This document shows positions 34,362 through 64,000 of a stretch of 64,000 bases of DNA, one piece after another. Position 1 is the stretch's first letter, and each line of letters starts with the position of its first letter. The translations under genes were made by a program, and so were the position numbers. Below the pieces are notes generated by a model that was not told the DNA's origin, made no database searches, and was given only the letters and a program-made list of their open reading frames with translations. The stretch is from Paraspadella gotoi (Eukaryota; Animalia; Chaetognatha): the NCBI GenBank assembly GCA_051294375.1, contig CM119267.1:1240194-1304193 (forward strand). The letters are read 5' to 3'.

Positions 34362-34392
<31 letters not shown>

Positions 34393-34868: not shown

Positions 34869-34944
34869 AAGAATGAAATTTGTTTAATCATTTGTTGTGT
34901 TTAAAATNNNNNNNNNNNNNNNNNNNNNNNNNACGCCAGAGAGA

Positions 34945-39900: not shown

Positions 39901-42900
39901 TAATTGCAATTTTTGCCGGTAGAGGAAAAAAATGAGGCCGAGTTAATGGAAGTTAATGGAGCAATTGATAGAAAAGCCGGAAAATAATGCTAAAAATATT
40001 AATTATTTGTCGGGAGAAAAAGGAGAGAAATCTAAACAAGTTTGAGCAAACATGTGGATCTGCCAGAAGTCATTAGCGGTTAAATTAATTAATTAATACA
40101 ACTATATATACTAAAATATAATTAATTAATATTAATTAATTTGATCCAAATGTTTGTTTTTGGGTCCTTTTCGTCCTGACACGACAGAAAGCTAACGCCG
40201 ATGATGAATGGCGAACGACGACAATAATGCCAATAACGATTGACTCGTTTGATTGATTGATTAATTGATTGATTAAATAATTCTTAATTTATATAAATTA
40301 GATTGATTGAATAATTGATTAAATGATAACTAAATAATATTGCATTGAATAATTGATTAGATTAATTAATTATTTGATTAATTAATTTGATAATCTATTT
40401 GATTCATTAATACATCTTATCATTGCATTTACATTTAATATTATAAAGAAAAGAAGCAATAATCAATTAGTGAAAACAGGTTTTTTTTTTTTTCCATTTA
40501 AACCTCAATTTCCACACAGATGATTTCAATCGAAACTTGATTCAAAGCTTAATCACAACACTTTACTACCCACATACAGATTCATCAAATCCATACCCAA
40601 TCGCAATCAACAAGCAATTTGGAGTTTTTTTTGCTAAGGTGGGGACAGGACGGATGGAAACAGACGGACATAGTTTTTTGCATAATTTATCATAATTCGA
40701 TGTCTGACATGAATATAAGTGAATGCCCGACAAGATTGAGGGGCGACCGACAGACCGACACGAGTGAATTATGAGTCGAGATCTGCTGATGAAGCGATCC
40801 GACTTGAAAAGGTGAAAAAAACTAAATGAATAATAATAATAATAATAATAAAATAATAATAAATAATAAAACAAATCATAAAAGACCCAAACACAACTAA
40901 ATAGAATAAAACATTTTTTTAAAAATCTGTAAAAAAACAGCTGCGCTGGTTAAGTGAAGAAATAAAGAGGGATTAACTATAGGTAAGGAAAGAATGTGGT
41001 AGGTGATGTTATAAGTATATCAGTGATAAGAAGAAAATTGAGTAATTTTTATAAATTATATTATAATGGGCCAGGTAAAGAGAATCAATAAAGTGGTATG
41101 ATAATTTTATAAACTATTTAAATTGCATAAAAATGATAGAAAATGATTAATGGGTAAATTTATAGTTATCTCTTATTTAACCTACGTACTTATATAATCA
41201 AGGCTAAGATTAATAAAATTAAATTTTACCTTAATTTACCAACAGTTTTAAGAACAGCAGAACTTGAACATTGAATACTATAACTAAAACTTATCTTTCT
41301 CTTGTTTTTATGTCAACATAACCAAAAAAAAACCAAAAAAAAAACCTTTTTTTCGGTGTTGTCGGCTCGAAGTTACCGGACATGAAATCTTCTCTCTTTA
41401 CCGACAAGTGATTCCACTTTCCTTTAAAGGGAAATGATGGACATTAATCACGTGCATAACTTAAATTTATGAAACCTGTAGAAAACTTGTAGTCAAAAAT
41501 ATACGCTCTCTCTCTCTCTCTTCAGTCTTCTCTATTCCCCCTTCCTCTATACTCTTTCGCTTTATCTCTTTTTTGTTCAAGATTATCTTTGCATGTGAGA
41601 GCTAAATTCTCGAACTTTCTGACAATTTTAATCTCATTGCATATTTTAAATCCGAACCTTGTCTCTGCGAGGCTATTTTGGGTCGCGACGCTAGCATCAA
41701 GGAATAATTTTTATTCCCCTTAACTCACCTCAGCGACTTTCCCTCTTGCGGCGGCGGAGAGAAGCGGGATTGTTTGGCGGTCGAAAAAAGCGACGGGCGA
41801 AGGACGCAAGCGGGTCGCCCATGACGACGACGAACAACAAGGGGTGGCGAACATCGTAGGAAGGTTCTCTTAGCGGCGTGGGGGGGGTATGTTTTTTCTT
41901 TTTTTTGTTTCTTTTGTTAGCTAATAATTATTTCGTTGGAACGATTAATTGACTTTTTTACGGTTATATTTTGTTGTTTTGGGTTATATTTGTTGTTTTT
42001 GTTTATATTTTGGTTGTTTTTGTTTATATTGGTTGTTTTTGTTTATATTTTGGTTGTTTTTGTTTATTTTGTTGTTATTTCATTTTTCTAAATTTTTAAT
42101 GACGTAATACATATTCAAGTTGAAAATTTTCGGTTCAACAAAAAATACTGAAACGTGAAACGTAGATAAAAAAAAAAAGAAAGTTTTGATGTGCTTGACA
42201 TCGAAAGGAATTCGTGACAGGACCTTTTGACATCAAAAATTAAATTCGTGACATGACTAATGAACATCGAAAAGGAATCGTGACATGACTTATGACATCG
42301 AAAAGGAAATTCGTGACATGGCGAGAACGAAAAATGGGGCTCTCTTTTCTCAAAGGCCACTTTCTGTTCCTATCACCAAAACTTAATTTTTATTGTAATA
42401 CTTAAGTAATATTTAACCATAACCCCAAACCTTAATAATTAATCTTATCCTAAACTTAATCCCTAACTCTAATCGCTTTAACGCTAACATTCTTCACTCT
42501 TATATCCTAATGCTAATCCCTATCTCTTAGATCCTTAATGCTAATTCCTACTTTAATCCTTAATGCTAATCCCTAACTTTAATCTTAACGCTAATCCCTA
42601 ACTAATCCTTAACGCTAAATTCCCTAACTCTAATCCTTAATGCCTAATACCTAACTCTAATCCTAATGTACTCTAAACTCTAATCCTCTAACTCTAATCC
42701 TTAAACACTAATCCTTAACTATAATCCTTACAGAACTAATCCCTAACTAATAACCTTAACACTAATCCCTAACTAATCCTTAAAACGCTAATCCCAACTA
42801 GAAATCCTAACTGCTAACCAATAATCTAATCTTTACGCTAATCCCTAACTCTAAATCCTTAACGATAATCCCTAACCTTAACTATCTTAATCTTTAAAAT

Positions 42901-45900
42901 CTAAACCCGAATTTTAAGATGAATTGGGTCCTCTTGTAAAAATAAAGCCGATGGTATCACGCAGAAAAAAAGATAAAAAGATTGTGAATGAGAGAAGTGA
43001 GATCTGGTTTTTCGTCGAAACGGACGAAAAACCGTAATTCAACAAAAACTAAATAAATTTAGGATTTGAATAAATCAATAATCTAATTTGACAGAAAAAA
43101 TGGATTTATGATATTATGAGATAAGAGAAAAATATTTCACTAAAATGAAGATTTGAAACAAATCTCTTTTTTTTTTTGTTTTTCCCCAAAAAAAAAGTTT
43201 TTGAGAAAGAAAAGATTTGTGTGACTAAATCGCAAAAATTTTATCATTCATTGTAATATATTTGAAATGTCATATTTTCATAACTTGCTTCTATAGTGTT
43301 AACAATAATATTTCAGCTAAAGATTTGTTTTTTTTAACTGTTTAAATTCAGTGTTTTTGTTAACGCTTGTTATAGTAATCAATCGTCGTCGTCGTCATGT
43401 CCATCTTTCAATTTCCGATAATTTAGTTTTCCATTCCGTCTTCGTTTTACCTTCTATCCCTCCTCCTCCTCCCTCTTCCTCCCTCTTTCTCCTCCTCCCT
43501 CCTTTCTCCTACGCAATTATTCGATATCGTGCAAACTTAATACCAGATTCCGTACAAATTAAGTTTATACTCTTTAATCTGTTTTCATAATATCTTTCTT
43601 TCTCTCTTTCCTCTTTCTTCTTTATTTATTTCTCCTCTTCTTCTTTTTTTATTCTTTTCTTTCACTTTTTTTTTATATATAAAGAAATTCAATATAGCTA
43701 GAATTTTTCGCACATTATTTTTTAGTCCATAGATTGTTCTGAATCTGTTGTCGGTTCTTGATGTTCACCAATTTCAAGTTTTAGTCCGGATCCTGCTTAT
43801 CAGCAGATCCCGACTCTATAATTCACTTTTGTCGTCCGTCGTCCGCCCCCCCAATATTGTCGGGGCACAGACACTTATATCAATGCTAAGAACATCGAAT
43901 TTATGATTAAATTATGCAAAAAAAGAAGCCCGTCCGTCCATGCCATCCTGTCATGTCTGTCGTCGTTCCGTCCTGTCCGTACCAACTTAGTAAAAAACAC
44001 CCAATTACTCGTGATTGATGGATAGATTTGAAATAAAAAATTTGGTGTGGGTAGGAGAAGTGAGTGATTGAGCTGGATATGAAGTTCGACTGGAATCATC
44101 CCAGTGGAATGTGTTAATTGAAAAAACAAAAAAATATATTTCACTATTTGAACACCAATTACTCATAAGTGGATGGGGCGATTGACATTCAATTTATATT
44201 TGGGTAGAAAAGTGTGTGATTAAACTGAAATCAAGTTTCGATGGAAATCGTTTGAGTGGAAATGAGTTTAAATGGAAAAAAAACAAAGAAACCTGTTTCA
44301 CTAATTGATTATGCTTCTTTTTCTTTTTATTTAAATGTAAATGCAAAGATGTAATTAATTAATAAAATAATTAATCAGTTAATTAATCAATTAGATCAAT
44401 TAATTATAAATAATTAATTAATCGGTCAATAATCAATCAATTTATCAATCAATCAATTTATAATAATTAAGTCCATTATTAATTATTCAATCAATCAATT
44501 TTATTTATAAATTAATTATTTTTAATCAATCAATTCGAATCATCAACAATCATTCAATCAAATCCAATCAATCAGTCAATCAATCATTCAATCAGTCAAT
44601 CAATCAATCATCAATCAATCAAATCAATCAAAGTCCAATTGTTATGGCATTATTTTGTTGTCCCATCATCGTCCGTCGTTGCCTTGTCGTGTGAGTGACG
44701 AAAAGACCTAAAAAACAACATTTCGATCAAATTAATTAATTTATTAATACAAATTATTATTTAGTTTATATAGTGTAATAAACTAATTAATTAACCGCAA
44801 TCAATTAATTAATAATTAATTAAATTAATTGATTCCGCTAATTATCGTGGGTAGATCCGAACATTGTTTGCTCAAACTTGTTTTTCAAGCAAATTAATTT
44901 GGCTTTGGTTTATTAACTACTATACTACATTTTTCCCAAATTTTTGCCTATGTTTGGAAGCAAAAGCGAGAGAGAGAGAGAGGGGGGAAGAGAGAAGAGA
45001 GAGAGCAGATAGAGAGAGAAATGAGAGAGAGGGAGTGAGCGTTAAGAGACCATAATTCCAATGAAATGCAAGAAATCCTAGAAAAATTCCCATCAAGGAA
45101 TAGAGAGGCTAAAAGTGAGCGGGCGCAGATGATAAATGATTGGAGAGAGTAGAGTAGAGGAGAGGGACGGGAGTAGAGACGTAGAGACGCAGTAGAGAGG
45201 GAGACGAGAAGAGAGTAGAGTAGACCGAGAGACGAAGTAGAGAGTAGGAGAGGTGATATGCACGACCAGAGGCAGTGGAGGGACGAGAAGATGTAGAGAT
45301 TGCAGAGAGCCCTTTAACCCGGCCAACCGGAGGAGGAGAGTAAAGAAGGAAAGAAGAGTAGAGAGAGAAAGAGAGAAGAGAGAGAAACGTGTGAGCCGTC
45401 AGTAATGAGTACAGGGAGTGGAAATTGCATTTTTTTGAGTGATTTTCTTACCTTGGCTTTCATCACCTTGGCCTTTCATGCCCAACCTTCTTGGCCTTTT
45501 CCTCACACTTGGCTATTTATCACCTTGACCTTCATCACCTTGGCCTGTCATCACCTTAAGCCCGATGTCCCTTGGCTTTCTTAATATCATTGACCCTTCC
45601 ATTTTTTAAAATCTATCTTGACCTAAAACCTTAAACGTGATGATTTCAAAATTCTGGCGCCACATATTTGATGGATAGAAGAAAAAAAGAGATTTGAGGT
45701 CACGAATGTCATCTCAATCTTGAGTGGAATAGAAATCGAAGGGGATTTTTAGTTGCGCTCGAATTCTCTCTCTCTCACTCCTTCCCTCTTTCTCTCTCTT
45801 TCTTCTTCCTCTCTCCTCTTCTCCCTCCTCTCTCTCTCTCTCTCATCCTCTCTCTTCTCTCTCTCTTTTTCNNNNNNNNNNNNNNNNNNNNNNNNNTTCT

Positions 45901-47734
45901 CTTTCTCTATTTAAGTAATATCTCAGATTCCTTTGTCATCTGGCATTTATCACGATATGAAGTAATGTAAATAATACATTAAATTTTCATGGTATAAACT
46001 TTGCGGCTCCAATGAAGTCACTTAATTTGTGGATCAACTTTTGATTTATTCACTAAACTGGAGATAAATGTGATTAGTTGATTCAGTGATTTCTTCTCCC
46101 GAATGTCACAAATTTTGAAGGCGGATCACGGGTTATCTGTGAAGCTCAGGGATGTGAACAGATGAAGACGTCATTTCAAAATGTCACGTCTCACACTGAC
46201 GACGACGACGAAGAAGACGACGACGACGATGAAGACGACGACGACGACGACGACGACGAAGAAGACGACGACGACGAAGATGTCTATGATAATGAAGACG
46301 ACGCCGCTAATAGTACACTCATGTGCCAAAAAAACCCGCCACTTTATAACTTCATAAAAATATTTGTAAAATAATATTAAAAAAAAAATTTAAAAAAAAA
46401 ATCAATGTGTATTAATTTTATTACTGTAGGTCAAGTGGTTTAATCATATTTTTTAAACTTCAATGTTCCAAAACCAGAAGGGAAAATCAAATTTCATTTA
46501 AAAACTTCGGAATTATTAACATGTCTAATGTCTATCATTCATCACATTTTTCAATTACTTTGAAATTAATATTTAAGGATCTGGGTCAATTCAGTTGTCT
46601 TGCCCTATCCCTTCCGGATGGCCTAAAATAATAGTATTTTTTTAATCCATTCTAAATAAAAAATATCAAAAGAAAGTAGATTAGTTTTAAAGCAAGTTAA
46701 GATTTTTCATATTGAGCTTTGGGTGGCAGTACTTCCATTTATAAAAAACACTGCTCCTAAAACAAATGGACCGATTTTTAAAAAAATCCATCTTTTTAAT
46801 AAGTTTAATTTATTTTTATAATTTTTTAAAAAATCTCATACGCTCTTTTTCCTCCCTTTCTGCCCCTCTTTCCTCCTCAATCTCTCCTCCCTCATCTCCT
46901 CTGCCTCCTTATTCCCCCTTTTCTCCTCTCTCTCTCCTCCCCTTCTTTTCCCTTTCCTCTCCTCCGCTATTCCACCATTATTCCTCCTCTCTCTCTCTCC
47001 TCTCCTTTCTCCTCCTCTCTCTCCTCCTCCCGTTCCTCCTCTCCCCATCGTCTTTCCCCATCTTGACCCACTCTCCCTCGAGATCAATTTCTTTCCCATT
47101 CCTTCTTTTGGAGTCACAAACTTGAAAACGAAATGTCGTCCAGCAAATGGTGACTTGCGTCTCGTCGTCGTCGTCGTCGTCGTCGGTCGTCATCATCCAA
47201 ACGTTGACAACTTCAGCAACGATGAAATGGAAGCTAAAGTGTTGTTCATGTTGTTATGTGTCTTTTTCTTCATCGTTGTTTTCTTTCAATTTATTTTTGC
47301 TTATTCTGCTGATTGTCAAATACTATATAAAGTCAACGATTAATGTCACGATCACGTTCTTTTCCCGGTGCGTAAAAGTCGCGCAGTCATCTACACGGCT
47401 CCAACAAAGGCGTCTGTCCTTCTCCCTCGACTGCCACGTCCGATACCACACCATCGCACGACCCTTTTTGACTGCGCTCTCCAGAAGGTCAATTCAGCAA
47501 TATCAATTTAAGTAACATGACAAAACCATAGTTTTCTTCTGAATTTCGCATCTCAAAATATTGCTCAACATTCACTATTAATTAGTCTGTTACCCTTTGA
47601 CTGATCACCCTCAGGTGTCCATTAAGGATTTTTAAACCCACGTGACTTGCGACAGACTTTCCCTTTGTAACGCCAAACCGGGAAAATGAGAAGCAATGAA
47701 AATTTTGTTTAATCATCTCTGTCTGTGTTAAAAT
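34945..47734 (+). repeat. Large near-identical duplicated blocks, probably an assembly artefact
   Basis: 34945-37485 repeats ~30505-33050, and ~37490-47734 repeats ~24950-34907. Differences are mostly 1-bp indels. 25-N gaps lie at 34908-34932, 45872-45896 and 47735-47759. Confidence 0.88.
37795..41854 (-). pseudogene. Frameshifted second copy of the ankyrin-repeat gene (pseudogene or uncorrected duplicate)
   Basis: All five exons are recognisable but contain many indels; lies within the duplicated block. Confidence 0.7.
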
Positions 47735-49268: not shown

Positions 49269-49889
49269 ATGACGACGACGACGTCAGGTTGTCCTACAAT
49301 CGATGAGGCGAAACCAGGATTTGGAATCCCTTGTGCCTCATGTCCAGGTGAAAGAAGAGAAGGAAGGATTTATGGCGGGCGGGAAAGATTTAGGAAGAGA
49401 GGGAAAGATTTAGAAAGAGAGGGAAAGATTTAAGAAGAGCGGGAAAGATTTATAGAGAGAGGGAAAGATTTAGTAAGAGAGGGAAAGATTTAGAAAGAGA
49501 TAAAATTATTTATAAAAAGAGGGAAAGATTTATAAAGAGATGGCAAGATTTGGGGAGATTGTGTCAGGAAAAGATTTGTGTGGGGGAGGGAAAAATTTGG
49601 GGAGAGATAAAAATGAGGAAAAGCAGGGGAGAGGGAAGGAAGTTAAGACGAATTTAAGTTCAGTTCAGTAAAGTCAAGTCAAGTCAAGTTAAGTTAAGTC
49701 AAGTTAAGAGGAAAAGTTATGAGTATAAAGAAGGACGATCATCAAATTTTCACCCCGAGTCTGAAATATTTTTAGGTCGTACTTTGTGTCAAAAAGAAAA
49801 ATCGGAATCAGAAATAAAAGACGAGAAGAAAATTGAAATTCGAATGAAATCCATTAAACACAAGATTTTGGTTGCGTCTGGAAAAGGGG
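49269..49889 (+). CDS. NUBP1: NUBP1/Nbp35-like cytosolic Fe-S cluster assembly factor, exons 1-2
   Basis: Exons 49269-49347 and 49776-49889 (GT-AG, phase 1) give MTTTTSGCPTIDEAKPGFGIPCASCPG-RTLCQKEKSESEIKDEKKIEIRMKSIKHKILVASGKG(G). This has the CX13CX2CX5C ferredoxin-like motif of Nbp35 and the start of the deviant Walker A motif. An upstream in-frame TAA lies at 49218. Not in the ORF track. Confidence 0.85.
49381..49600 (+). repeat. 20-bp purine-rich minisatellite (GGGAAAGATTTAGAAAGAGA)n just after the NUBP1 exon 1 donor
   Basis: About 9 units in exact 20-bp register, degenerating distally. Confidence 0.85.
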
Positions 49890-49917
49890 GTAAGTCGAAG
49901 TAAGGGATTAGAGGGTG

Positions 49918-49978
<61 letters not shown>

Positions 49979-50222
49979 GAAGAAAGACAGCAGACCCGCT
50001 CAGTCTATAGTAATTGATAAAAACACTTACTAAATAACTATTATCTCATTTGCATATTGCAGTAACATTTATCTCGGCCGATCCTAGATCCTAAATCCTT
50101 TATTCCACGCGCTCTTTCCTCTTGGCGCCTTTTTCCTTCCACGCGCCTTTCTTTCATCTTTGACTCCTCAGCGCGCCTTTTTCTTAACGGCTCAATGTGA
50201 GGCTGAAGTGGTAGCTGATGTT

Positions 50223-50302
<80 letters not shown>

Positions 50303-50710
50303 AAAAACAGGACGAGGTATCATTAAAACATATGTTTCATACTTGTGAAGACACGTGATAAGAAACGCTGAGCCTCTTTAGAATACTTTACACGTTTATT
50401 TTAATTAATTATTAAGTTAACAGTTAAGTGATTAACTTGTGTAGACACGCGTCATCTTGAGTTCCTACTTCCTCAAAAGTCGATAACAGAAAATCTCGCG
50501 CGACAAACTTTTTTTTTCGATAAAATTATTTATAATAATATTAATAATTGCAAATTCGTTGATGGCTAAACTAATATTATTTTTTTCAGATTTATGTTAA
50601 AGTATTTATCTCTTTATTCCGATATATATCTCTTACTTTTTTTTCTTATCGGATGTAGTATCATCAAGTGAAGTATCCGTTAGCAGTTTAATGGGTTGGA
50701 GGAAGAAGAG

Positions 50711-50789
<79 letters not shown>

Positions 50790-51270
50790 GAGGAGTTGTC
50801 AGTCGATTGGCATTCAATATACTTTATTATCTTCGCCCACATTCGTTTTTTTCTCTCTTTATTTTCCTTTGTTTTGCGTTTTTTCCGTTTTATTTTCCTT
50901 TTTTTATTCTTTCTCTTTCTTGTGTTGCTCCTAAATATTCGCCGCTTCAAGCGACTAGAAATCCCCTGGCGGCCAAATCGAGAACAGATTCGCTCAACGT
51001 TCTAATCAGAAAAACGAAAACAACAAAACAAAAACACTTAAACTGATAAGGGTAGCTTTGTGTGAAATGTTGTTGTTGGTGAATCGACCTTTTTGTGTAC
51101 ATAAAATTATACATCTTTTCCCTATTTTAGACGAGATTCGTTAGGTCACTATGTTAATATAGCCATTTATAGCATGTACAATATAGCGCCGGCATTATGT
51201 AGCAAGTTATTAATGCAATACTTTCTCTCGCAGTCGGTTAATTAACTCCCAAATGCTGGGTTACTATCTC

Positions 51271-51301
<31 letters not shown>

Positions 51302-52503
51302 CTTTTTCTATCTCTCTCACTCTATTCTTTAAATAATCTTTCTTCTCTCATCCTTCCTTCCTTTTCTCCTTCTTTACAATCAAATCAAATCAAAAATTTC
51401 CTTTTCCCCTTTCCCTCTTCTTTTCATTTTCTCTTCCTCCTTTTTCTCTCCTTCCTCTCCCTCTTCTCTTTTCTTATTCTTTCCTTTTCTCCCTCCTCCT
51501 CCTCTTCTCCTTTTCTCTTCTTCCTCTTCCTCTCCTACCTCCTCTTCTTCTCCTTTCTTATTTCTTTCCATTTTCCTCCCATCCTCCTCCTCCTCTTCTC
51601 TCTCTTCCTCCTCTTCTCTTCTTTCCTCCCCCTCTTCTCCTTTCTTTTTCTTTCCTTTCCTCCCGTCCTCCTCCTCTTCTTCTTTCTCTTCCTCTTCTTC
51701 CTCTCCTTCCCCCCTCTTCTCTTTTTATTCTTTCCATTTCCTCCCTTCCCTTCTCCTCCTCTTCTCTCTCTTCCTCCTCTTCCTCTCCTTCTCCCCCGCT
51801 TCTCCTTCTTATTTTTTCCTTTTTCCTCCTCCTTCTCCTTCTCTTCTCCTCTCTCTTCTTCGCCTTCTTCTCTTCCTCCCCCGCTTTCTCTTTCTTTTCT
51901 TTCCTCCCTTCCTTTCTCCTCTTCTCCTTTCTCTTCTCTCCTCTTCCTCTCTTACCTCCTCTTCTTCTCCTTCTTATCTTTCCATTTCCTCCCTTTTCTC
52001 CTCCTCTTCTTCTTTCTCTTCCTCCTCTTCCTCTCTTTCCTCCCCCTCTTCTCCTTTCTTATTCTTTCCTTTCCTACCTTCCTCCTCCTCTTCTCCTTTC
52101 TCTTCTTCCTCTTCCTCTCTCGTTTTCGTTTTTCTTTTCGCGTCGCCGATTTCCTCCCATAATTCCTCCTCCTCCTCTTCTTCCTCTTCCTCCTCCTCCT
52201 CTTCCTTCCCATTAAATAAACCCATACGTTTTTTTCCTTTTTTCTTAATAAAAAAAACAACAAAATTTCAGATTTATTTTTCTTTTCGTCTAAATTAATT
52301 AATCTTCATCTTAAACTTTCACTTAGTCAAATCATTCCTACTTAAATTAATTCATTCCCTCACACGAATTAATTCACCCACCAATTCCACTGAATGGATT
52401 CATTTTTTTCTCACCTCGACTGAATCTATTCATTCTTATTTTCTTTGAAAAAAAAAAAAAAAATTATATAAAAAAATTAAAACCAATTAATTAATTTTTG
52501 ACG

Positions 52504-52534
52504 ATGATTTTCGCCGCCGGCTTTTGTCGTATCT

Positions 52535-52574
<40 letters not shown>

Positions 52575-53316
52575 TCCACAAACCGACGCTCAATCGACGC
52601 CGCCCGACGCCGCCGAAACGACGCCGATGACTTGGTCCGACGCCGCCACGCCGACATCCCTCTGTCGACTCAGCAACGCCAACGGCAACGCCCCCATGAC
52701 GCCGGCAGATTTTCGCTTCAACGCCGCCGGAAGATGCTTTTTCTTTCTCAACGGAACCGGCGTCATTTCCGGTTTGACGTCCGGCGTCGTTTTCGTCTAC
52801 AACCCAGAGGGCGCTTCGATGCTGAGGAAATTGACGCCCGGAAGGTGAGAGAAGATCCAAACGGAGAGACGGACAAAAATAGGGGACGGACGAACAAAGG
52901 AAGAAGCGATGCAGACAGATGGAAAAACAGATTGACAAAGAAGACGGACTGAAAGAAATATAGACAGGATGACAAACAGACGGAAAAACAGAAGTATAAA
53001 AGTAGCATACCGAAAGACAGACATTAATTCCGTAGATCCTTTTCTCTCTCTCTCTCTCCCTCTCTCTCTTCCCCCTCTCTTCTTCCCTCACTCCCTCACT
53101 CCCTCACTCCCCCCCCCTTAGTGACGACGTCTCTCCGGACATCCTCGTCGCCGACCCTTTGACGAAGGAGTTGGAGTCGTCTCGGATAATGAGTCCCGAG
53201 GATCTCAAGATTTGGAGAGAATGCTCAGTCGCGGCCGTCAAGTGTTGCCAATATCAGCAGGTCAGTGGAGGGGAGATGAGAGGAGGAAAGAATGTCTCTC
53301 TCTCTCTTTCTCTTCT

Positions 53317-53356
<40 letters not shown>

Positions 53357-54003
53357 TCTCTTCTCTTCTCTCTCTCTCCCTCTCTCGCCTTTGTTTGCGT
53401 GGATAAATGGATTTCCTTTCACAAAACAAAATTCCCTTTTTTGTGTTGTTTACCTTCTGTTACCATATCAATCGACTTCACATACATTTTTTTCCAGAAT
53501 TTCTGAATATATCCATTGGATATTATCTAACTAAAAGGCATCATGAAAAAAAATTGTCATATCTCTTAGTTTTTCGTATCCATGACGACGAGAACTATCG
53601 ACGACGACATATATCTACAAGTGACTTTAATGATACTTTAACTTACTGTAAAGTCTCATGTGACTGCACTCGGCACAAGTATAAAACATGTGTTAAGTAC
53701 TATATTAAAAAATGATGCAGTATTAATTCAGTTATTTTTTTGCATTCACTTTGAACTGACCAACGGGCGGACGGACCGACTGACCGACCCGAAGTATTTT
53801 TATCTTTTTTTTTCTCATCTTTCGTTTTCTTCCTTTTGTTTTCTTTCTGTTTCGTTTTCATTTTGCTTTCTCTCTGTTTCGTTTTCTTCCTTTTGCTCTT
53901 TTTCTGATTCGTTCCAGAGGGGCGTCTAAATTTTTCCCAGAGCAAATTAACTCCTTAACGATTATGGAAGCAGCTTTCTTCCATATGCTTTAAAACGGTT
54001 CTA

Positions 54004-54036
<33 letters not shown>

Positions 54037-55449
54037 TCTCTCTCTCTCTCTCCCTCTCTCTCGTTTTTTCCAATCTTCTTCTTCAACACCGCAAACGAGA
54101 ACAGAAAACCGATGATTTAAAAAAAAAAAATCTAGATCGGTTCATCCAATGTGTTGCGCCTCAGTGATTTTCTTTCCCACGTATTTCCCTGTGACCACGT
54201 GACTACATGCCTATGATTTATGGTTGATCATTACTCTGCAAAGTTTCATTTCAAACAACCAGACATTACATTACATTGCGTGGTCAGTGGTTGCGTGGTC
54301 ACTGGTCAGTGGTCACGTGACCACATAAGTATAAAACATACATGTATGCATAAGAAGCATATTTGTCTGCCAAGTATTAAATAAAATAACTTTTTAGCCC
54401 ATGTATTTGTGACAAGCACTGCATCAAAAATTCGTTTTTTATTCTTTATAGTTTTAGGATTTCCTATAGGCGGCGCTAACAGTCACTTAGATTTGAGGTT
54501 TTTTTCCTGTCTTAACAAATGAGCAGCCAACTGTAGGCAAGTTATGAGCGTAAGTGGGACAGACCGACGGACAGACATACCGACCGACCGACAGACCGAC
54601 CGAAAAGTGACTTATACTAGTTATAGAGTTGCTCCGCGAGTACTCGCGGCGCAACTAAAAAAAATAAATTATTGATTCGAAAAAAAAATTGCGACATTTT
54701 TCAATGACTAAAGATTAATTTACGGAAAATCGTGCCAAATTATAAAAAATAATTTCTTTATTAAATACAGTACGATTTTTTTAATATTTATATAAAAAAA
54801 TAATTACGCTAAATATGACAACAAAATCCCTAGAATTTTTCTTATATAGCTTGGCGGAATCAAATATTCATTTTACTGCCCCCTTGTCCATTTCTTTATG
54901 CGTCCTTTGAAATCCCTCCGTCCATTAATCCATCCACTCGTGCATTCAGAATCCCATTCATCCATATTCATAGGGGATTCATTGATTCTCTGCTGAGTGA
55001 CTTTAAAAAGACAAAACGGGAAAAAATATCTTTGTTTCTGATGAATTTGAAGCTGGTCATTGTCAGACCATGTAGCATGTTGCGCTTGATCATTGCCTTG
55101 ATCATGTCATGTCATGGAAATGTCGTACTTTGGTCATTTTTAAAAATTTTATTAATTGAGAATTTTATTTTCTTTTGTTTAAACTTACCGTATAAACTTC
55201 CCATAAAAGTGTAAGAAACTTGTTTATACATTTCTCTTGAGAGAGAAAGCTTAAGATAGAGAAAGACAGAGAGAGAGAAAGAAAGAAAGACAGAGGGAGA
55301 GAGATAGAGAAAGAGAAAGCTGATGAGAGAAAGAAAGCCAGAGAAAGAGTCATAAAAAGAGAGAAGGCCAAAGATAGAAAAAGAGAGAGAAAAAGGCAGT
55401 GAGAGACAAAGGAAGAGATAGAGAGAAAGAGAGATAGAGAGAAAGAGAA

Positions 55450-55488
<39 letters not shown>

Positions 55489-56425
55489 AGACTCATCCCG
55501 TCCCTCTCATCCACAGACGATGGCACCGCTTGATGCCTCTCATCTCACTCCACCTTTCTGCCCCGCCACCTGGGATGGATACAAATGCCACGCCCCCACG
55601 CCGGCCGGACACGTCACTTCCTTCCTTTGTCCGGACTATGTAGTGGGCGCGGCATCGCTTAATGTCGGACGAGGGACACACGCCTGCAGTACGGACGGAG
55701 AGTGGTCCCGCCACCCAGACGCGCCTGGTAGTTGGGGGATAGAGAGAGAGAGAGAGTGGGCATGAGAGAGAGAGAGAGAGAGATAGAAAGAGAGTGGGGG
55801 AGGTAGAGGGAGATAGAGAGCCTTAAAATGTTGCCTCATTTAATTAATGTTGAGTTTGGTACCATATCCTGCGGGAAGCGTGAGGGCGAAGGCCGCCTTA
55901 GGGAAGTGGAAAGTTTCCTTCGATGATCATCGAGAAAATATAGGACAGAAGTCTACATCCAATTATCCCCAATTATTCCCTGTTCTTTTTCTTCCTTCAC
56001 AATCATCCTTCTCCTTTCCTCCCTCTCCTTCTCCTTTCCTCCCTCAGACATGACATGTGCGCTTGATCATTGCCTTGATCATGTCATGTCATGGAAATGT
56101 CGTACTTTTGGTCATTTTTTAAAATTTTATTAATTGAGAATTTTATTTTCTTTTGTTTAAACTTACCGTATAAAACTTCCCATAAAAGTGTAAGAAACTT
56201 GTTTATACATTTCTCTTGAGAGAGAAAGCTTAAGATAGAAGAAAGACAGAAGAGAGAAAGAAAGAAAGACAGAGGGAGAGAGATAGAGAAAGAGAAAGCT
56301 GATGAGAGCAAAGAAGCAGAGAAAGAGTCATAAAAAGAGAGAAGGCCAAAGATAGAAAAAGAGAGAGAAAAAGGCAGTGAGAGACAAGGAAGAGAAGAGA
56401 GAAAGAGAGATAGAGAGAAAGAGAA

Positions 56426-56464
<39 letters not shown>

Positions 56465-59400
56465 AGACTCATCCCGTCCCTCTCATCCACAGACGATGGC
56501 ACCGCTTGATGCCTCTCATCTCACTTCCACCTTTCTGCCCCGCCACCTGGGATGGATACAAATGCCACGCCCCCACGCCGGCCGGACACGTCACTTCCTT
56601 CCTTTGTCCGGACTATGTAGTGGGCGCGCATCGCTTAATGTCGACGCAGGACACACGCCTGCAGTACGGACGGAGAGTGGTCCCGCCACCAGACGGCCTG
56701 GTAGTTGGGGGATAGAGAGAGAGAGAGAGTGGGCATGAGAGAGAGAGAGAGAGAGATAGAAAGAGAGTGGGGGAGGTAGAGGGAGATAGAGAGCCTTAAA
56801 ATGTTGCCTCATTTAATTAATGTTGAGTTTGGTACCATATCCTGCGGAAGCGTGAGGGCGAAGGCCGCCTTAGGAAGTGGAAAGTTTCCTTCGATGATCA
56901 TCGAGAAAAATATAGGACAGAAGTTCTACATCCAATTATCCCCAATTATTCCCTGTTCTTTTCTTCCTTCACAATCATCCTTCTCCTTTCCTCCCTCTCC
57001 TTCTCCTTTCCTCCTTCTCCTCCTCCTTCTCCTCCTCTCCTTCTCTTTCCTCCCTCTCCTTCTCCTTTCCTCCTCCTTTCCTCCCTCTCCTCATTCTCCT
57101 TTCCTCCCTCTCCTCCTTCTCCTTTCCTCCCTCCTCCTCCTCCTTCTTTCCTCCCTCTCCTCCTTCTCCTTTCCTCCCTCTTCCTTCTCCTTTCCTCCCT
57201 CTCCTTCTCCTTTCTCCTCCTTTCCTCCCCCTCCTCATTCTCCTTTCCTCCCTCTCCTCCTTCTCCTTTTCCTCCCTCTCCTCCTCCTTCTTTCCTCCCT
57301 CTCCTCCTTCTCCTTTCCTCCCTCATTCCTTTCTCCTTTCCTCTCTCCTCTCCTTTTCTCCGTCCTCCCTCTCCTCCTTTCCTCCCTCTCCNNNNNNNNN
57401 NNNNNNNNNNNNNNNNTCCTTCTCCTTTCCTCCCTCTCCTCCTTCTTTCCTCCCTCTCCTCCTTCTCTTTTCTTCTCTCTCCTCCTTCGAGATATTGCGT
57501 CGTTCGATTTAGTTCTGTTTCAACGTGCAAACTTTGGGCAGTTTCAACACAGCACACGATCGTATCTCGCCACTGATCCCTACGACGGTTTTACTTATGG
57601 GATGAGTTTTTACCAAGCGGCAGGGATTCAGTCGATGTCTTTCTCTCTCTCTCTCTCTCTTTTTTTTTCCTTCACTATCTTTCTTTCTCTTTGTGTGATG
57701 GTTTCTTGATGGGGATTTGTTCTCCAGATCCGCGGCGGGATCGGGCATCATTCCACAATCCCAATCAAAAATCATAGCGGGGATTCCCGGTCGTGGTTAA
57801 AAAATAAACAGTTGTAGGGGAACAGTTTTAGAGTGAAGTAAAAACTGTCCCTTTATTGCCCGTTCATACTGAACGTTTTTGCGCGGCGTAATACTTGCCT
57901 CCTTCCCCTGCATCAGGTCGAGAATGGACCAACTTTGCCACCTGCGTCCCAAAGGAACACTCTGTCTTCTACGCCAACGCATGGGCTTTTTTGGCGTCGG
58001 TTGTGGCGCTCGTCCCAAGTCTGGTCATCTTTTTTAGGTGAGGTGAAACAAAGACTGAAGAGGAAAACATTGTTTATGCAGCATTTAGTTCTTCAATCTC
58101 ATTTACATATTGTTGACTATTTCTCATATACTTGGATACGGATTTTATAAAAGTCTTACCGAACAGAATAAATGAAGTTGTGAAGAGCAAGGGAGTTCAC
58201 ACTACATATTGATACCCATTTTTTCTGTTATATTTAAATTTTAATATACAATTAACTAACTTTAAAATTTGGCGACTTATTCATTTTCCAAGATGGTATT
58301 TTGATATTTTTACTAGTTTTAATAGGGTTTATAATAATTTAGTTTTTTCAAAGAGACAAAGAGACTGTAGTGTAAAAACTTTCGGCTTCTATAAACAATT
58401 GTAAAACAAAAGATTTAAAAACTATAAATACATCGATGACCAAAAAATAATTATCTCATTGAACTTTTCTTTTTATCATTTTTTTTGGTTGACATTGTAT
58501 ATTTTTTTAAAAATCAAAACCAACAATGTTACTAAAATTAATTTTCTGAACAACTACGTTGAATCTAATTCGCCTTTCACACCCTCACATTTCCCCCCCC
58601 CCGCTCTCTTCACAGCTACCGTCAACTTCGTGTTCACCGAATCACTCTTCACAAACATCTATTCCTCTCACTCCTTCTCACCGCCCTCACGTCAATCGCT
58701 TGGGATTTGGGAGTCATCACGAGATCATCGGTCGTCGTCGACAATGGAATCGGATGTCGAATCCTTTACGTCCTCAAACTTTACTTTGTTGGCGCAAATT
58801 ACGCGTGGATGTTGTGCGAGAGCTTCTTTCTTCATCACATATTAGTCACGGCCTTTGCCGAGATTAGGTAAAACTTTGCTCGGACCGCTTATCTGTTATT
58901 AATTGTTTAAAGTAATAGGAAAGTATTTTTCTCCCTCTCAATATTCATCACGACTTTTGCTGTCATTTTATTTTGGAACAAGTTTGAGCAAACGATGCCT
59001 GATCCTCCCACGAGATTAATTAATTAATTGCAAGCTAAATTAATAAATTAGTTAATTAATTAAAAGTGAAACAGCCGGAACCGAGCCGTTGAAAAATTCC
59101 CTTCAGGAGTCTTCGTTGTTATTTTCTGTTTGGATGGGGAGCGCCCTTCGTTCCAACCACAATTTATATTGGGCTAAAGATCGCTTACGCCAATCAATAC
59201 TGTTTCGCTTACAGGTAGCAAGGAAAAGCGTCGTCACGTTGCAATTGTTGCGGCAGATTTAGCATTTTTTTTTTTGGCTGGTGCTGTACTTGAAATGCGC
59301 TTATCTTCTCAGTCGAACGGACGTTTCTGCCTACGACCTCATCTTCGCCCTCCCCAACACAGCATCTCTCCTCCTTAACTTTCTCTTCCTCGTCAACATA

Positions 59401-61318
59401 ATCAGAATTCTTTGTCTAAAACTTCGTCCGGACGGGGAAGTCCCAAGAACGGAGCCGCCGCAGTATGGGAAAGCGATAAGGGCTACGGTAAGGGGAGAGA
59501 GGGAGAGAGAGACAGAGAGAGAGAGAGACGCCGCAGTATGGGAAAGCGATAAGGGCTACGGTAAGGGGGATAAGGGCTACGGTAAGGGGAGAGAGGGAAG
59601 AGAGGAACAGAGAAGAGAGTGAGACGCCGCAGTGTGGGGAAGCGATAAGGGCTACGGTAAGGGGAGAGAGGGAGAGAGAGACAGAGAGAGAGTGAGACGC
59701 CCGCAGTGGGAAAGCCGATAAGGGCTACGGTAAGGGGAGAGAGGGAGAGAGAGAGAGAGAGAGAGAGCGCTGCAGTGTGGGAAGCGATAAGGGCTACGCG
59801 TAAGGGAGAGAGGGAGAGAGAGACAGAGAGAGAGGACGCCGCAGTTGGGGAAAGCGATAAGGGCTACGGTAAAGGGAGAGACGGAGAGAAGACAAGAGAG
59901 AGAGTGAGCGCCGCAGAGTGTGGGAAGCGATAAGGGCTACGGTAAGGGGAGAGAGGGAGAGAGAAAAAGAGAGAGAGAGAGAGACGCCGCCAGTATGGAA
60001 AGCGATAAGGGCTAGGTAAGGGGAGAGAGGGAGAGAGAAAAAAGAAGAGACAAGCCGCTCGCAGTATTGGAAAGCGATAAGGGCTACGTAAGGGAGGAGG
60101 GAGAGAGAAAAAGAAAGAGACAGCCGTCGCAGTATGGGAAAGTGATAGGCTACGGTAAGGAGAGAGAGGAGAGAGAAAAAAGAGAAGAGAGAGAGTCGTC
60201 GCAGTATGGGAAAGTGATAAGGGCTACGGTAAGGAGAGAGAGGGAGAGAGAAAGAGAGAGAGAGAGAGAGCCGTCGCCAGTTATCGGAAAGTGATAAGGG
60301 GCTACGGTTAAAGAGAGAGAGATGATAAGAGAGAGAGAGAGCCGCTGCAGTATGGAAAGTGATTAGGACTACGGTGAGGGGAGAGGGGGAGAGAGAGAGA
60401 GAGAGAGAAACAACAAGAGTATGGGAAAGCAATTAGGGCTACGGTAAAGTGAGAGAGAGAAAAAGAAAGACGGAAAAGAGAGAGAGAGAGAGACAAACAA
60501 AAAGAGAGAGAGCCGCAGTATGGGAAAGCGATAAAGGCTATGGTAAGGAGAAAGAGAGAAGAGAGAGAGACGGAAAGAGAGAAAGAGAGTCCCTTGATTG
60601 GATTGTCGTTCCGTACGTGGTAAGAAGAAAAAGGATAAAGAGAGACTCCCCGTAAGGATAAATAAGCCCACCTTGAAAAATGCGCAAATGTCTGTCTCCC
60701 CCTCTTTTCCTTCAATTTTTCTTCTACCCTCACTCCCTCTCCTGCCTTCTCCCTCTTCCCTTCTCCCTCTCTTATCCAGATGCTCCTCATCCCTCTCTTC
60801 GGCCTTCCCCGCCATTCTCTGGTGGTGTTATTATCGAGCATCCCCAAGTTCCAAAACTTCTCGTCCACGTCCTGGAGGGTCTTCAAGGGGCCTTCGTCGC
60901 CGTCTGCTTCTGTTTCTTCAACGGAGAGTTCCAGAGCCTCTTGGCGACAACTTCGCACCGCTTACGGTTCCGTCATTTCCCGTCCGGCGCCGGAGCGGCG
61001 CTCGTTTGCGGGCGCCCGAATCAACAACAACACACACTCTGGCGCCGACGACTTCTGTTTTTAACGTCAGCGGAAGAGAGTCGCTACGTGCTCGATCGGG
61101 CCGGAGCGGTGTCGGGCGGGTGCGTTCGGGCGGAAGCGGTGTCGGGCATGGCGGGCCGTCGGGAGGACGGCGTCCGCTTGGCGGGGACGGGCAAAGCGCG
61201 CCTATCTTCGTCGGGTCCGCTGAGCCTATTGCCGGCGCAAAGCGGAAAACGGCCCAACCTTCGGTGGCGGGGGAGGCGCTCTGTAGAAGTTAGAGTTAGA
61301 GAAAGAGTCAGGAGATAG
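52504..61318 (+). CDS. Class B (secretin-family) GPCR, calcitonin/PDF-receptor-like
   Basis: Exons 52504-52844, 53122-53260, 55517-~55727 (hormone-binding domain CPATWDGYKC...CPDYV...CSTDGEW), an error-ridden probable TM1 exon ~57490-57601 (LIPTTVLLMG), 58616-58867 (RITLHKHLFLS...NYAWMLCESFFLH), 59107-59214 (FGWGAP), 59313-59487 (LNFLFLVNIIRILCLKLR...YGKAIRAT), 60780-61318 (MLLIPLFG...LQGAFVAVCFCFFNGE). The last exon needs a frameshift correction near 60810-60860. Confidence 0.88.
56046..57010 (+). repeat. ~980-bp tandem duplicate of ~55063-56045, including the GPCR hormone-binding-domain exon (frameshifted copy)
   Basis: Near-identical intron and exon sequence. The second exon copy (~56493-56700) has several 1-bp indels. 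Confidence 0.88.
58141..58212 (+). mobile_element. Tc1/mariner transposase C-terminal remnant
   Basis: Translates FIKVLPNRINEVVKSKGVHTTY*, resembling the Tc1 C-terminal consensus (SMPxRxxxVIxxxGxxTxY). Confidence 0.5.
59457..60550 (+). repeat. Tandem array (~15 units, ~70-75 bp) of GPCR exon 3' end + splice donor + GA tract
   Basis: Unit GCCGCAGTATGGGAAAGCGATAAGGGCTACG|GTAAGGGGAGAGAG...; the first unit is the real exon end (donor at 59488). Confidence 0.93.
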
Positions 61319-61633
61319 AGACGAAAAACTGAGAAGAGATAGAGACACTCAGACAGAGAGAGAGAGTCAGAATCCGAAAAATATGATCTAGACAGTTTTC
61401 GTTTTCAATTTTTAAATTTTTGACAAAACCTTTTGTTAATATTTTGAAAACAAATCAAAAATAGTCTCCGATAGTGTTCGCTCGCGAGGAGAGAACAAGT
61501 CAACATCTTGTTATGGTCGATTGGTCTGTCTGTCTGTCTGTATAAACTTTGATGAATGAAATGTTAAAATTGGGTTAAAACCAATTCTATAAATTCTTAA
61601 AAAATCAAACAACGACGAAAACAAAACCATTAT

Positions 61634-61880
61634 GGCAATAGCCGGGGTTACTTGTGATGCCCAATTGGGGATGGGGCATCTCATCTGAGCTTTGGGGCTT
61701 CCGACCCTCAGAATTGACGCCTCCAGTCATTGGCGCGTTAACTAGGACGGTCTCGCTTTGTCAAAAGCAGAGAGAAGTCGTTACGGACTGTGGGATGGAA
61801 GTCACAACGCTTGGATAGATGGTCCCTCTGATGGATGCTATTCTAGTGATGTTTGCGGTGTGAATTTTATTACCGCCACA
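61634..61880 (+). repeat. GC-rich structured dispersed repeat, copy 3
   Basis: Aligns with 17349-17600, including the terminal GCGGT...ACCGC hairpin; indel-rich. Confidence 0.8.
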
Positions 61881-62961
61881 ACAATTATCCATCTATATCT
61901 TGAAAAGTTCGTCCATCAATATATTTAAAAAATTGTAATAAAAAACTAGATCATCTTTTTAGAATTGACTTCGAATAATAATTAGTAAAAACTTAGTAAA
62001 CATTAAATAATTTTAGATAACAAACATTAATTTCGTGGAACACCTGTTAACCTGTCAATACTACATGGTACAATTGTACATATAGAGAATTAAAGCTCGT
62101 CGTCGTCGTCGTCGTCGTCGTGTGTCGTCTGTTCGTCGTCCTCATTGTCGTCGAATTTTTATGTTTATTTTGTTTTTTTCTTCTACGTTTCATAGATTAA
62201 TCAATTTTTAAAAAAATGTAGCCTTTGCGTTGGGTGGGCTTTAAATATTATATCTATCAGGTCGAAAAAAATAATGTTTAGTTTTTGATTGAATACTGAT
62301 AATCATCTGTCAGCTTCAGTCTTCACTGTTATTTGTGGGCGAATCAAACCACTTCTTTCATTTTTGTTTTTGAATGGTTGTTTTTTAGGAGTCTCAATGT
62401 GACAAAAGCTGTTATTTGTAAACAAGATGTTGATATAAATAAACGTTGACTCAATTAAAAAGAAATATTTTCGTGAAAACTGCTTGGTTTTTCTATCACA
62501 TCGGCGGGTGATCTCTGTTTGAAAAATGTATAAAGTAATCATTCAAGTGTGTAATTGTATGGCTCAGCAAAAATTATTTAGCTTTTTTAAAATAAAAACT
62601 ATTAACTTCAACTGACCAATAGATAGATAGAGAAGAGATATATATATTATACATATATAAATACAATTTTTTTTAATACATATATAATATATATGTCTCT
62701 CTCTAGAGAGAGAAAGAATGAAGAGATGTAGAGAGACAGTAGAGAGGAGACAGAATGGAGAGAGAGAAGAGAAGAGAGAGGAGAGAGTGAGGAGAGAGAG
62801 AGAGACGAGAGAGAGAAGAAGATGCGCGTCTACATGACTTTAGATCATCTCCAACAGATATTCCTGGTTTCTTTTATCCATCTGTCAACCAACCACATAA
62901 CCATCTACTACCTCCCATTTGTGACCATCTGTGTACCTCTCCATGTCTCACTTCTATTCAG

Positions 62962-63100
62962 GCGTGGCAAAGTCGACGTGACGTCCCTTCTCGACCGCCG
63001 GCATTCGCTCGTCGAGGCCTTCAGGGTCGGCCGTCTTGGAATGCGGACATCTGTGGACCAAGTTGTGGGAAGTGTTTGGAGTGGAGGAGGTGGAAAGAAA
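62962..63100 (+). CDS. NUBP1: NUBP1-like exon 3 (indel-damaged)
   Basis: Acceptor CTTCTATTCAG, then GC GTG GCA AAG TCG ACG completes phase-1 exon 2 as SGKG-G-VAKST (canonical GKGGVGKST). Across indels it continues TSLL...FARRG..RVG.L..ADICGPSCGK..FGVEE, matching the NUBP LDxDICGPS motif. The donor position is uncertain. Confidence 0.72.
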
Positions 63101-63233
63101 TGGTATCATGATTACACTAATAGCACAAGTCTGATACTAGCTTTACACAGCATCTACCGTTATATCCAAAGCGATAATCCCGAAGACCTAAAGACAGCTG
63201 GTCTACACNNNNNNNNNNNNNNNNNNNNNNNNN

Positions 63234-64000
63234 GAGAGAGAGACGCTGCAGTATGGGAAAGCGATAAGGGCTATGGTATGGGGAGAGAGGGAGAGAGAGA
63301 CAGAGAGAGAGACGCTGCAAGAAAGAGACGCCGCAGTGTGGGAATGCGATAAGGGCTACGGTAAGGGGAGAGAGGGAGAGAGAGAAGAGAGAGAGACGCC
63401 GCAGTATGGGAAAGCGATAAGGGCTACGGTAAGGGGAGAGAGGGAGAGAGAGACAGAGAGAGAGTGAGACGCCGCAGTAGTGGGAAAGCGATAAGGGCTA
63501 CGGTAAGGGGAGAGAGGGAGAGAGAAAAAGAAAGAGACAGCCGTCGCAGTATGGGAAAGCGATAAGGGCTACGGTAAGGGGAGAGAGGGAGAGAGAAAAG
63601 AGAAGAGACAGCCGCGCAGTATGGGAAAGTGATAAGGGCTACGGTAAGGGAGAGAGAGGGAGAGAGAAAAAGAGAAAGAGAGAGAGTCGTCGCAGTATGG
63701 GAAAGTGATAAGGGCTACGGTAAGGAGAGAGAGGGAGAGAGAAAAGAGAGAGAGAAGAGAGCCGTCGCAGTATGGGAAAGTGATAAGGGCTACGGTAAAG
63801 AGAGAGAGATGATAAGAGAGAGAGAGAGCCGCTGCAGTATGGGAAAGTGATTAGGACTACGGTAGGGGAGAGAGAGGGAGAGAGAGAGAGAGAGAGAGAA
63901 ACAAAGAGTATGGGAAAGCAATTAGGGCTACGGTAAAGTGAGAGAGAGAAAAAGAAAGACGGAAAGAGAGAGAGAGAGAGACAAACAAAAGAGAGAGAAG
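63234..64000 (+). repeat. Second copy of the GPCR donor array after a 25-N gap, likely redundant assembly of the ~59.5-60.5 kb region
   Basis: Unit variants occur in the same order (AAAGCG>AAAGTG, GATTAGGACTAC, GCAATTAGGGC, ACAAACAAAA) as in 59530-60510. Confidence 0.85.

What the first reader, a model, noticed from the sequence alone, without database searches (positions are those of the whole stretch)
49269..63100. A complete class B GPCR gene nested on the same strand inside intron 2 of a NUBP1-like gene
Seen: NUBP1-like exon 2 ends mid P-loop (SGKG-G|gtaagt, 49889). The only phase-compatible continuation found (G-VAKST...ADICGPS) starts at 62962. The whole ~8-exon GPCR (52504-61318, +) lies in between, and there is no N-gap between NUBP1 exon 2 and GPCR exon 1 or between the GPCR last exon and NUBP1 exon 3. 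Established: intron-nested genes are mostly antisense to the host. Inference: the NUBP1 transcript would have to skip about 8 valid exons and the GPCR poly(A) site, which implies strict long-range splice-site pairing, mutually exclusive expression, or chimeric transcripts.
Basis: partly seen in the sequence, partly recalled or inferred. Interest (0 to 1): 0.78.

Follow-up and report, generated by a model that had tools for sequence, protein, structure and literature searches.

The report
Eight-exon receptor inside NUBP1 intron
An eight-exon hormone-receptor gene likely lies on the same strand inside one intron of an iron-sulfur housekeeping gene, and a spliced contig from a likely RNA run joins the host exons across it; such nesting is known in animals, but guests with this many introns are rare.

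Summary
Layout confirmed. NUBP1-like exons 1-2 (49269-49889) and exon 3 (from 62962) flank an eight-exon class B1 GPCR on the same strand. A 1,224-nt contig from a likely RNA run joins exon 2 directly to exon 3, reading SGKGGVGKST, so the skip happens; it rests on one contig. The assembly is poor: five 25-N gaps beside indel-rich duplicates, receptor exon 8 and host exon 3 frameshifted, a probable junk tail at 63093-63208. The receptor-to-exon-3 join is hard to explain as an error; the exon-2-to-receptor join was not checked with reads. Nesting is about 80% likely. Special long-range pairing is probably unnecessary: the guest's seven donor-acceptor pairs are balanced, leaving the host's two sites over; the guest's poly(A) site is the real obstacle. 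Same-strand, intron-bearing guests are known (50 fly hosts; unc-17 in cha-1), but usually have one intron. This scan noted same-strand nesting in other genomes and antisense nesting in this one, not this locus. Unchecked scan notes call the genome an arrow worm, which would allow trans-splicing as a rival route.

The parts
49269..49347 (+). NUBP1-like coding exon 1 (first three Cys of CX13CX2CX5C)
   Evidence: motif described in PMC8007109
49776..49889 (+). NUBP1-like exon 2, ends inside the P-loop, phase 1, donor GTAAGT
   Evidence: its last 13 nt stand in the spliced contig of run X9 and occur once in the window
49890..62961 (+). NUBP1-like intron 2 (13,072 nt as assembled), host intron
   Evidence: spliced junction; length
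49890..52503 (+). left part of the intron: three perfect (GA)n runs of 54-73 nt, a CT-rich array, eight cryptic acceptors; the join is not checked with reads
52504..52844 (+). GPCR exon 1 (start codon, hydrophobic leader that includes a (GTC)13 repeat); TATA-like word at 52465
   Evidence: 5' end not mapped
53122..53260 (+). GPCR exon 2
   Evidence: aligns to P0003/P0004
55517..55727 (+). GPCR exon 3, hormone-receptor domain (PF02793, E 6e-12)
56054..57017 (+). second, frameshifted copy of 55076-56045 including exon 3; likely gap-filling artefact
   Evidence: 97%, 18 gap openings, 7 mismatches; not tested with reads
57392..57416 (.). 25-N gap in a CT-rich array in GPCR intron 3
   Evidence: exons 3 and 4 join in frame across it and align to P0001
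57917..58037 (+). GPCR exon 4 (TM1); acceptor is phase 1, in frame with NUBP1 exon 2
58616..58867 (+). GPCR exon 5 (7tm_2, E 2e-15)
59107..59214 (+). GPCR exon 6 (7tm_2, E 9e-5)
59313..59487 (+). GPCR exon 7 (7tm_2, E 5e-5)
60780..61318 (+). GPCR exon 8 coding part (TM6-7, tail), frameshifted in the assembly; stop position uncertain (61303 or 61318 by frame)
   Evidence: covered by X9 contigs from 60779
61319..61682 (+). likely GPCR 3' UTR, at least this far; AATAAA at 61937, 62438, 62591; poly(A) site not mapped
61630..61885 (+). noisy copy of a high-copy dispersed repeat
62962..63092 (+). start of NUBP1-like exon 3, frameshifted in the assembly; true end not in the window
63093..63208 (.). 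no cover in 4 of 4 runs; DNA contigs go on with other letters; likely junk read tail
63234..64000 (+). re-read of GPCR intron 7 behind a 25-N gap (overfilled-gap pattern)

Best explanation
An eight-exon class B1 receptor gene likely sits on the same strand inside intron 2 of a NUBP1-like gene, whose exon 2 is joined directly to exon 3 in one spliced contig; the receptor likely has its own promoter, and the host likely skips it because the guest's splice sites pair among themselves. Shown: exon order in the assembly, the spliced junction, transcript contigs of both genes in one run. Inferred: (a) polymerase from the NUBP1 promoter reads through the receptor; (b) each of the seven inner donors takes its nearest acceptor, or the whole block leaves in one lariat, so the host donor (the only perfect GTAAGT of nine) and the acceptor at 62962 are left to pair; (c) the receptor's poly(A) site is weak or suppressed on host transcripts, and leaks give truncated or chimeric RNAs, most with early stops; (d) the receptor is expressed in few cells, which limits interference.
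For: Spliced junction in a 1,224-nt X9 contig, with 373 nt upstream where 209 coding nt are needed, and no X9 cover of the intron beside exon 3 while 3 of 3 DNA runs read from intron into exon. No other continuation in the window and no copy of exons 1-2 between receptor and exon 3. The right join lies in a long-read-like extension that starts in the receptor and ends in exactly the exon the transcript needs; the far side of the 63209 gap also reads receptor intron 7. Seven balanced GT-AG introns of 98-2,256 nt. Five of seven host-to-guest joins stop within 69-140 codons. Precedents: PMC3814207, PMC3875643, PMC8527503. If the genome is an arrow worm, signalling genes tend to be outside operons (PMC12460157).
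Against: One contig, 30 letters seen, 13 of them from exon 2; X9 is RNA by guess. No contig spans the stretch; 61838-62098 has no cover in 4 of 4 runs. The left join has four low-complexity blocks and no read check; (GA)n tracts lie on both sides of the guest. No promoter evidence beyond a TATA-like word in 24% GC sequence. Eight cryptic acceptors lie before the receptor and its exon 4 is in frame with the host. Nearest-pair splicing is recalled knowledge, and exon definition would favour inclusion of guest exons. In flies this configuration is selected against in essential hosts (26% versus 42% lethal). AATAAA strand bias in the left part is not significant (2 versus 9, p 0.065).
Confidence: 0.58

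Rival explanations
1. Nesting is real, but the receptor mRNA is made from the host's transcript: either a shared first exon (cha-1/unc-17 type) or a spliced leader added at a free acceptor before the receptor start, so that each pre-mRNA yields NUBP1 or receptor.
For: Free acceptors lie upstream of the receptor ATG, the nearest at 52327. unc-17 is made this way (PMC3875643 passage). Earlier scan notes call this genome an arrow worm; about half of the genes of one arrow worm are trans-spliced (PMC12460157).
Against: The taxon was not confirmed here (no close named relative). Operon gaps in arrow worms are under 250 bp and signalling genes are depleted from operons; here the distance is 2.6 kb. 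Joining exon 2 to any of the eight cryptic acceptors puts a 66-179-codon reading frame with a stop ahead of or over the receptor start. A free upstream donor favours cis- over trans-splicing (recalled).
Confidence: 0.18
2. Assembly artefact: the receptor block, or NUBP1 exons 1-2, was misplaced across (GA)n or CT-rich repeats, and the genes are neighbours or unlinked.
For: The window is badly gap-filled: five 25-N gaps, duplicates of 0.8-10.5 kb at 86-97%. Overfilled gaps often mark scaffolding errors (PMC3504050, PMC9635638 passages). (GA)n on both flanks. No contig bridges either join.
Against: It needs two errors that drop the receptor exactly between two exons that are spliced together, or a read chimera that lands on this exon by chance. 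Short-read contigs match 60657-61764, 62133-62622 and 62837-63092 in order, with likeness falling as in a read extension; the uncovered part begins with a recognisable repeat tail. Exons 1-2 are absent from 61.3-63.0 kb.
Confidence: 0.16
3. The two NUBP1-like pieces are not one cis unit: exon 3 is spliced to exons 1-2 of a near-identical copy (for example hidden in the 57392 gap), or the halves are joined by genic trans-splicing as in mod(mdg4).
For: Only 13 nt of exon 2 were seen in the transcript. Tandem duplicates about 10 kb apart are reported for an arrow worm. Genic trans-splicing exists in flies (PMC4387717, listing only).
Against: The 13 nt match exactly and occur once in the window; phase, order and strand fit plain cis-splicing. 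A copy in the gap would still overlap the receptor on the same strand.
Confidence: 0.08

Closest known systems
Same-strand, intron-containing nested genes of Drosophila melanogaster (Lee and Chang 2013, PMC3814207; passages read)
   Same: Guest wholly inside one host intron, same strand, guest has introns.
   Different: Fly same-strand guests are 72.5% single-exon and the rest have a median of one intron; this guest has seven. Such fly hosts are less often essential, whereas NUBP1 is described as an essential CIA component in human (PMC8007109).
C. elegans cholinergic locus, unc-17 inside cha-1 intron 1 (PMC3875643; one passage read)
   Same: Multi-exon gene on the same strand inside a host intron that the host transcript skips whole.
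   Different: There the genes share a non-coding first exon and one pathway, and three guest exons are skipped; here the intron is inside the host's P-loop codons, eight exons are skipped, the genes are unrelated, and a shared exon is not shown.
Parallel nested intronic genes of the ctenophore Hormiphora californensis (PMC8527503; passages read)
   Same: Many same-orientation nested genes in an animal with spliced leaders; processing left open by the authors.
   Different: Different phylum; exon counts of the parallel guests were not seen (supplements not read).
Mammalian host/nested pairs with premature host polyadenylation (PMC11694760 passages; PMC3192792 abstract)
   Same: Predicts the likely interference: guest activity causes exonization or early poly(A) in the host.
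   Different: No such isoform was seen here; only the right-hand part was examined.

Membership tests
NUBP1/Nbp35 | N-terminal CX13CX2CX5C motif | tested here: met
   regex match at residues 8-31 across exons 1-2; motif from PMC8007109
NUBP1/Nbp35 | P-loop GKGGxGKS/T (form of the motif recalled) | tested here: met
   30-nt loose end of the X9 contig reads SGKGGVGKST (translated by hand)
NUBP1/Nbp35 | C-terminal CPXC motif | not testable with these tools
   lies beyond the window; no genome held
NUBP1/Nbp35 | profile match to the Mrp/NBP35 (ParA/NUBPL) family | tested here: inconclusive
   single exons too short or noisy: Pfam none, PDB none, MrpORP E 0.14 below a chance prfB hit, Atlas ParA clusters at 0.81-0.86 behind unnamed ones
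Class B1 (secretin-type) GPCR | hormone-receptor ectodomain (PF02793) | tested here: met
   exon 3, 46 bits against cutoff 26
Class B1 (secretin-type) GPCR | 7tm_2 domain | tested here: met
   exons 5-7 above cutoff; TM7 region aligns to P0004 in a shifted frame of exon 8
Class B1 (secretin-type) GPCR | intact full-length frame with signal peptide | tested here: inconclusive
   exons 1-7 open; exon 8 broken by indels that short-read contigs do not share; leader hydrophobic by window scan only
Calcitonin/CGRP-type receptor subfamily | orthology by tree or ligand | tested here: inconclusive
   named hits are decapod 'CGRP type 1 receptor-like', 41% over 309 columns; only 98 candidates scored; no tree built
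Nested intronic gene | guest lies wholly within one host intron in the real genome | tested here: inconclusive
   true in the assembly; no read or contig spans either join
Nested intronic gene | host mRNA is spliced across the guest | tested here: met
   one contig, one run
Nested intronic gene | guest is its own transcription unit | not testable with these tools
   X9 contigs cover exon 8 and 3' UTR; contigs cannot show a start
cha-1/unc-17-type compound locus | shared first exon | not tested
   no reads laid on the 5' side
Spliced-leader operon | leader on the downstream mRNA | not tested
   no reads laid on the receptor's 5' end; taxon unconfirmed
Spliced-leader operon | genes under 250 bp apart (criterion of PMC12460157) | tested here: not met
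   2,614 nt from host donor to receptor ATG, and the upstream part has no end of its own

The most novel reading that the evidence does not exclude
An operon inside an intron: in a trans-splicing animal the receptor mRNA is cut out of the NUBP1 pre-mRNA by spliced-leader addition (or by use of the host's first exons, including the in-frame exon 2 to receptor exon 4 join), so one splicing choice decides between an essential iron-sulfur scaffold and a neuropeptide receptor.
Probability: 0.13. Interest if true: 0.72.

Novelty: new member of a known kind. Interest (0 to 1): 0.4.

Why it matters
Selection against mis-splicing is the standing explanation for why same-strand guests are rare and intron-poor. 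A seven-intron guest inside the P-loop intron of a likely essential gene is an outlier on both counts. It gives a compact test of whether nearest-pair (intron-definition) splicing and weak poly(A) use make such nesting harmless in small-intron invertebrates. In practice, gene finders that forbid nesting will split or fuse these two genes.

Tried and rejected
Whole-genome check of single copy and of the sequence beyond 64000: no genome held. Reads on the left join and receptor 5' end: none laid, question open. No run is on record as RNA; X9 is a guess, supported by its spliced contig. The hole at 61838-62098 is not used as evidence either way. Synteny: a metagenome scan gave 8 loci of distant receptors (48-58%), none with a NUBP1-like match (best E 0.8); low sensitivity, uninformative. 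Homologs of NUBP1 exon 2: 0 of 23 candidates; two repeat-driven hits; PDB none. Taxon by homology: best hits of the neighbouring protease are at most 43% identical and spread over phyla. RNA elements that might steer splicing or cut the intron: no Rfam hit at gathering score in the window, 19 weak hits far below it, no tRNA. AATAAA strand bias: not significant. Rejected: a nearer exon 3 in the window; order receptor-then-whole-NUBP1 (exons 1-2 absent from 61.3-63.0 kb); a processed NUBP1 copy as source of the junction (3 of 3 DNA runs read intron into exon 3 and no listed loose end of theirs shows the spliced form, though 48 loose ends were not shown). In print: no paper on this gene pair in the 10 listed of 25 and none on nested genes in arrow worms (one hit, a sponge paper).
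Full report
Observation. The window shows a NUBP1-like exon 1 (49269-49347) and exon 2 (49776-49889). Together they give 64 residues with C-X13-C-X2-C-X5-C at residues 8-31, the N-terminal motif shared by NUBP1 and Nbp35 (PMC8007109, passages). Exon 2 ends in phase 1 inside the P-loop. A six-frame motif scan and tblastn of the window found no continuation other than the piece at 62962. Between them lie eight + strand exons with GT-AG borders. Exon 3 hits the hormone-receptor domain and exons 5-7 hit 7tm_2 above cutoff. The spliced product of exons 1-7 aligns across the predicted junctions with an unnamed relative (P0001, 60% over 214 columns) and with a decapod 'CGRP type 1 receptor-like' protein (41% over 309 columns). 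Family profiles could not confirm the short NUBP1 exons, so that name rests on two motifs.

The splice. Nine public runs hold part of the region; I laid four of them on 60620-63205. Run X9, RNA by guess, has a 1,224-nt contig that maps to 62978-63091 and whose loose 5' letters are the last 13 nt of exon 2 followed by the start of exon 3, reading SGKGGVGKST. Those 13 nt occur once in the window. The contig has 373 nt upstream of the mapped part, against 209 coding nt needed. X9 does not cover the intron next to exon 3, whereas 3 of 3 DNA runs read from the intron into the exon. X9 also has contigs on receptor exon 8 (from 60779, with 29 unaligned letters beyond the exon edge that were not printed) and on the 3' side up to 61682. 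This is one contig from one run, and the match of its 5' part to exon 1 was not seen.

Assembly quality. All five gaps are exactly 25 N, and the window holds indel-rich duplicates of 0.8-10.5 kb at 86-97% beside them. This fits overfilled gaps from long-read gap filling (PMC3504050 and PMC9635638, passages; that such gaps are left at 25 N is recalled, the paper only defines a gap as 25 or more N). Short-read contigs match the window at about 95% over exon 8 and about 90% at 62133-62622 and 62837-63092, mostly by gaps; this explains the frameshifts in receptor exon 8 and host exon 3. At 63092 all contigs stop or go on with about 450 other letters, so 63093-63208 is probably a junk read tail. 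Behind the gap, 63234-63998 repeats receptor intron 7. No contig bridges 61.8-62.1 kb or the microsatellites.

Is the nesting real? The right join is in a noisy extension that runs from the receptor to exon 3. A chance chimera would have to land on the one exon that completes a gene 13 kb upstream; exons 1-2 are not hidden in that stretch; the uncovered part begins with a recognisable repeat tail. I put this join at about 90%. Given it, and cis-splicing, at least the receptor's end lies in the host intron. The left join has no N but passes three (GA)n runs and a CT-rich array and was not checked with reads. Full nesting: about 80%.

Mechanism. The guest brings seven donors and seven acceptors in balanced pairs, with introns of 277, 2256, 2189, 578, 239, 98 and 1292 nt as assembled; its first exon has no known acceptor and its last no donor. 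If each inner donor takes its nearest acceptor (recalled as the usual preference where introns are short), or the block leaves in one lariat, the host donor and the acceptor at 62962 remain. The host donor is the only GTAAGT among nine. Against this: eight cryptic acceptors precede the receptor, and exon 4 is in frame with the host; five of the seven joins to receptor exons stop within 69-140 codons, and the join to exon 8 cannot be judged in noisy sequence. The harder obstacle is the guest's poly(A) site (AATAAA at 61937, 62438, 62591). U1 protects transcripts from proximal intronic sites (PMC5499120, abstract), but the host donor is 12 kb away, so a weak site or cell-restricted use is as likely. 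In mammals guest activity can cause early host polyadenylation and exonization (PMC11694760 passages; PMC3192792 abstract). None of these steps was tested.

Taxon and the rival route. Unchecked notes from this scan call the genome an arrow worm with operons, and record a tubulin gene hosting 14 antisense genes on the same piece. My searches gave no close named relative, so this is a lead. In one arrow worm nearly half of the genes are trans-spliced, operons were defined by gaps under 250 bp, and signalling genes are depleted from them (PMC12460157, passages; PMC2481426, passages). A host-derived receptor mRNA is therefore possible but not favoured.

Comparison. In flies 71.27% of nested genes are on the opposite strand; same-strand guests are 72.53% single-exon, multi-exon ones have a median of one intron, and 50 same-strand hosts have intron-bearing guests, 26% with lethal phenotypes against 42% (PMC3814207, passages; similar in PMC5174743, passages). 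unc-17 has three exons in cha-1 intron 1 (PMC3875643, passage). Parallel nested genes are many in a ctenophore, and nested genes are 12% of genes in a glass sponge (PMC8527503, PMC10282587, passages). Supplements of these papers were not read and may list guests with as many introns. Searches for this pair and for nested genes in arrow worms found nothing relevant. The scan's other same-strand cases are mostly intron-free guests.

Verdict. A probably real, transcribed case of a known arrangement, at the rare end for intron number and host importance, in a poor assembly. New member of a known kind; interest 0.4, higher only if the receptor proves to be cut from the host transcript.

Noticed in passing
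window 24935-47734: About 10.5 kb (24935-34907 versus 37486-47734, 90%) and a 2.6-kb block present three times (30504, 34948, 43148) flank three 25-N gaps with indel-rich differences; the ankyrin-repeat gene near 25.2-26.0 kb (- strand) has a broken copy near 37.8-38.5 kb. Likely gap-filling artefacts, not real duplications.
   Followed up: partly
window 61630-61885 (+), 17345-17560 (+), 5528-5737 (-): High-copy dispersed repeat of about 230 nt (summed contig depth in the tens of thousands) with several hairpins; one copy folds at z -2.3; no Rfam or tRNA hit. One copy lies in the likely receptor 3' UTR.
   Followed up: partly
window 49889 and 57917: NUBP1 exon 2 is in frame with receptor exon 4; such a splice would put the Fe-S motif on a receptor without its ectodomain. 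No evidence that it occurs.
   Followed up: no
window 1-1536 (-): Open frame of at least 512 aa, trypsin-family serine protease (PF00089 relatives, best about 40%), running off the window start.
   Followed up: partly
window 7028-17169 (+): Multi-exon astacin-like metalloprotease (HELGH zinc motif near 10.4 kb) with Cys-rich ShK-like repeats near 16.9-17.2 kb, read from ORF translations only.
   Followed up: no
window 48439 and 48926: Two CCGGAAGT (ETS-type, recalled) words within 900 nt upstream of the NUBP1 start codon, of five in the window; possible housekeeping promoter.
   Followed up: no
window 52535-52574: A perfect (GTC)13 microsatellite encodes the poly-valine core of the receptor's likely signal peptide.
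   Followed up: no
window 59452-60589: Receptor intron 7 is a tandem array of about 70-nt units that begin with copies of the last 25-30 nt of exon 7 and its donor site, so many duplicate donors follow the exon and could lengthen it.
   Followed up: no
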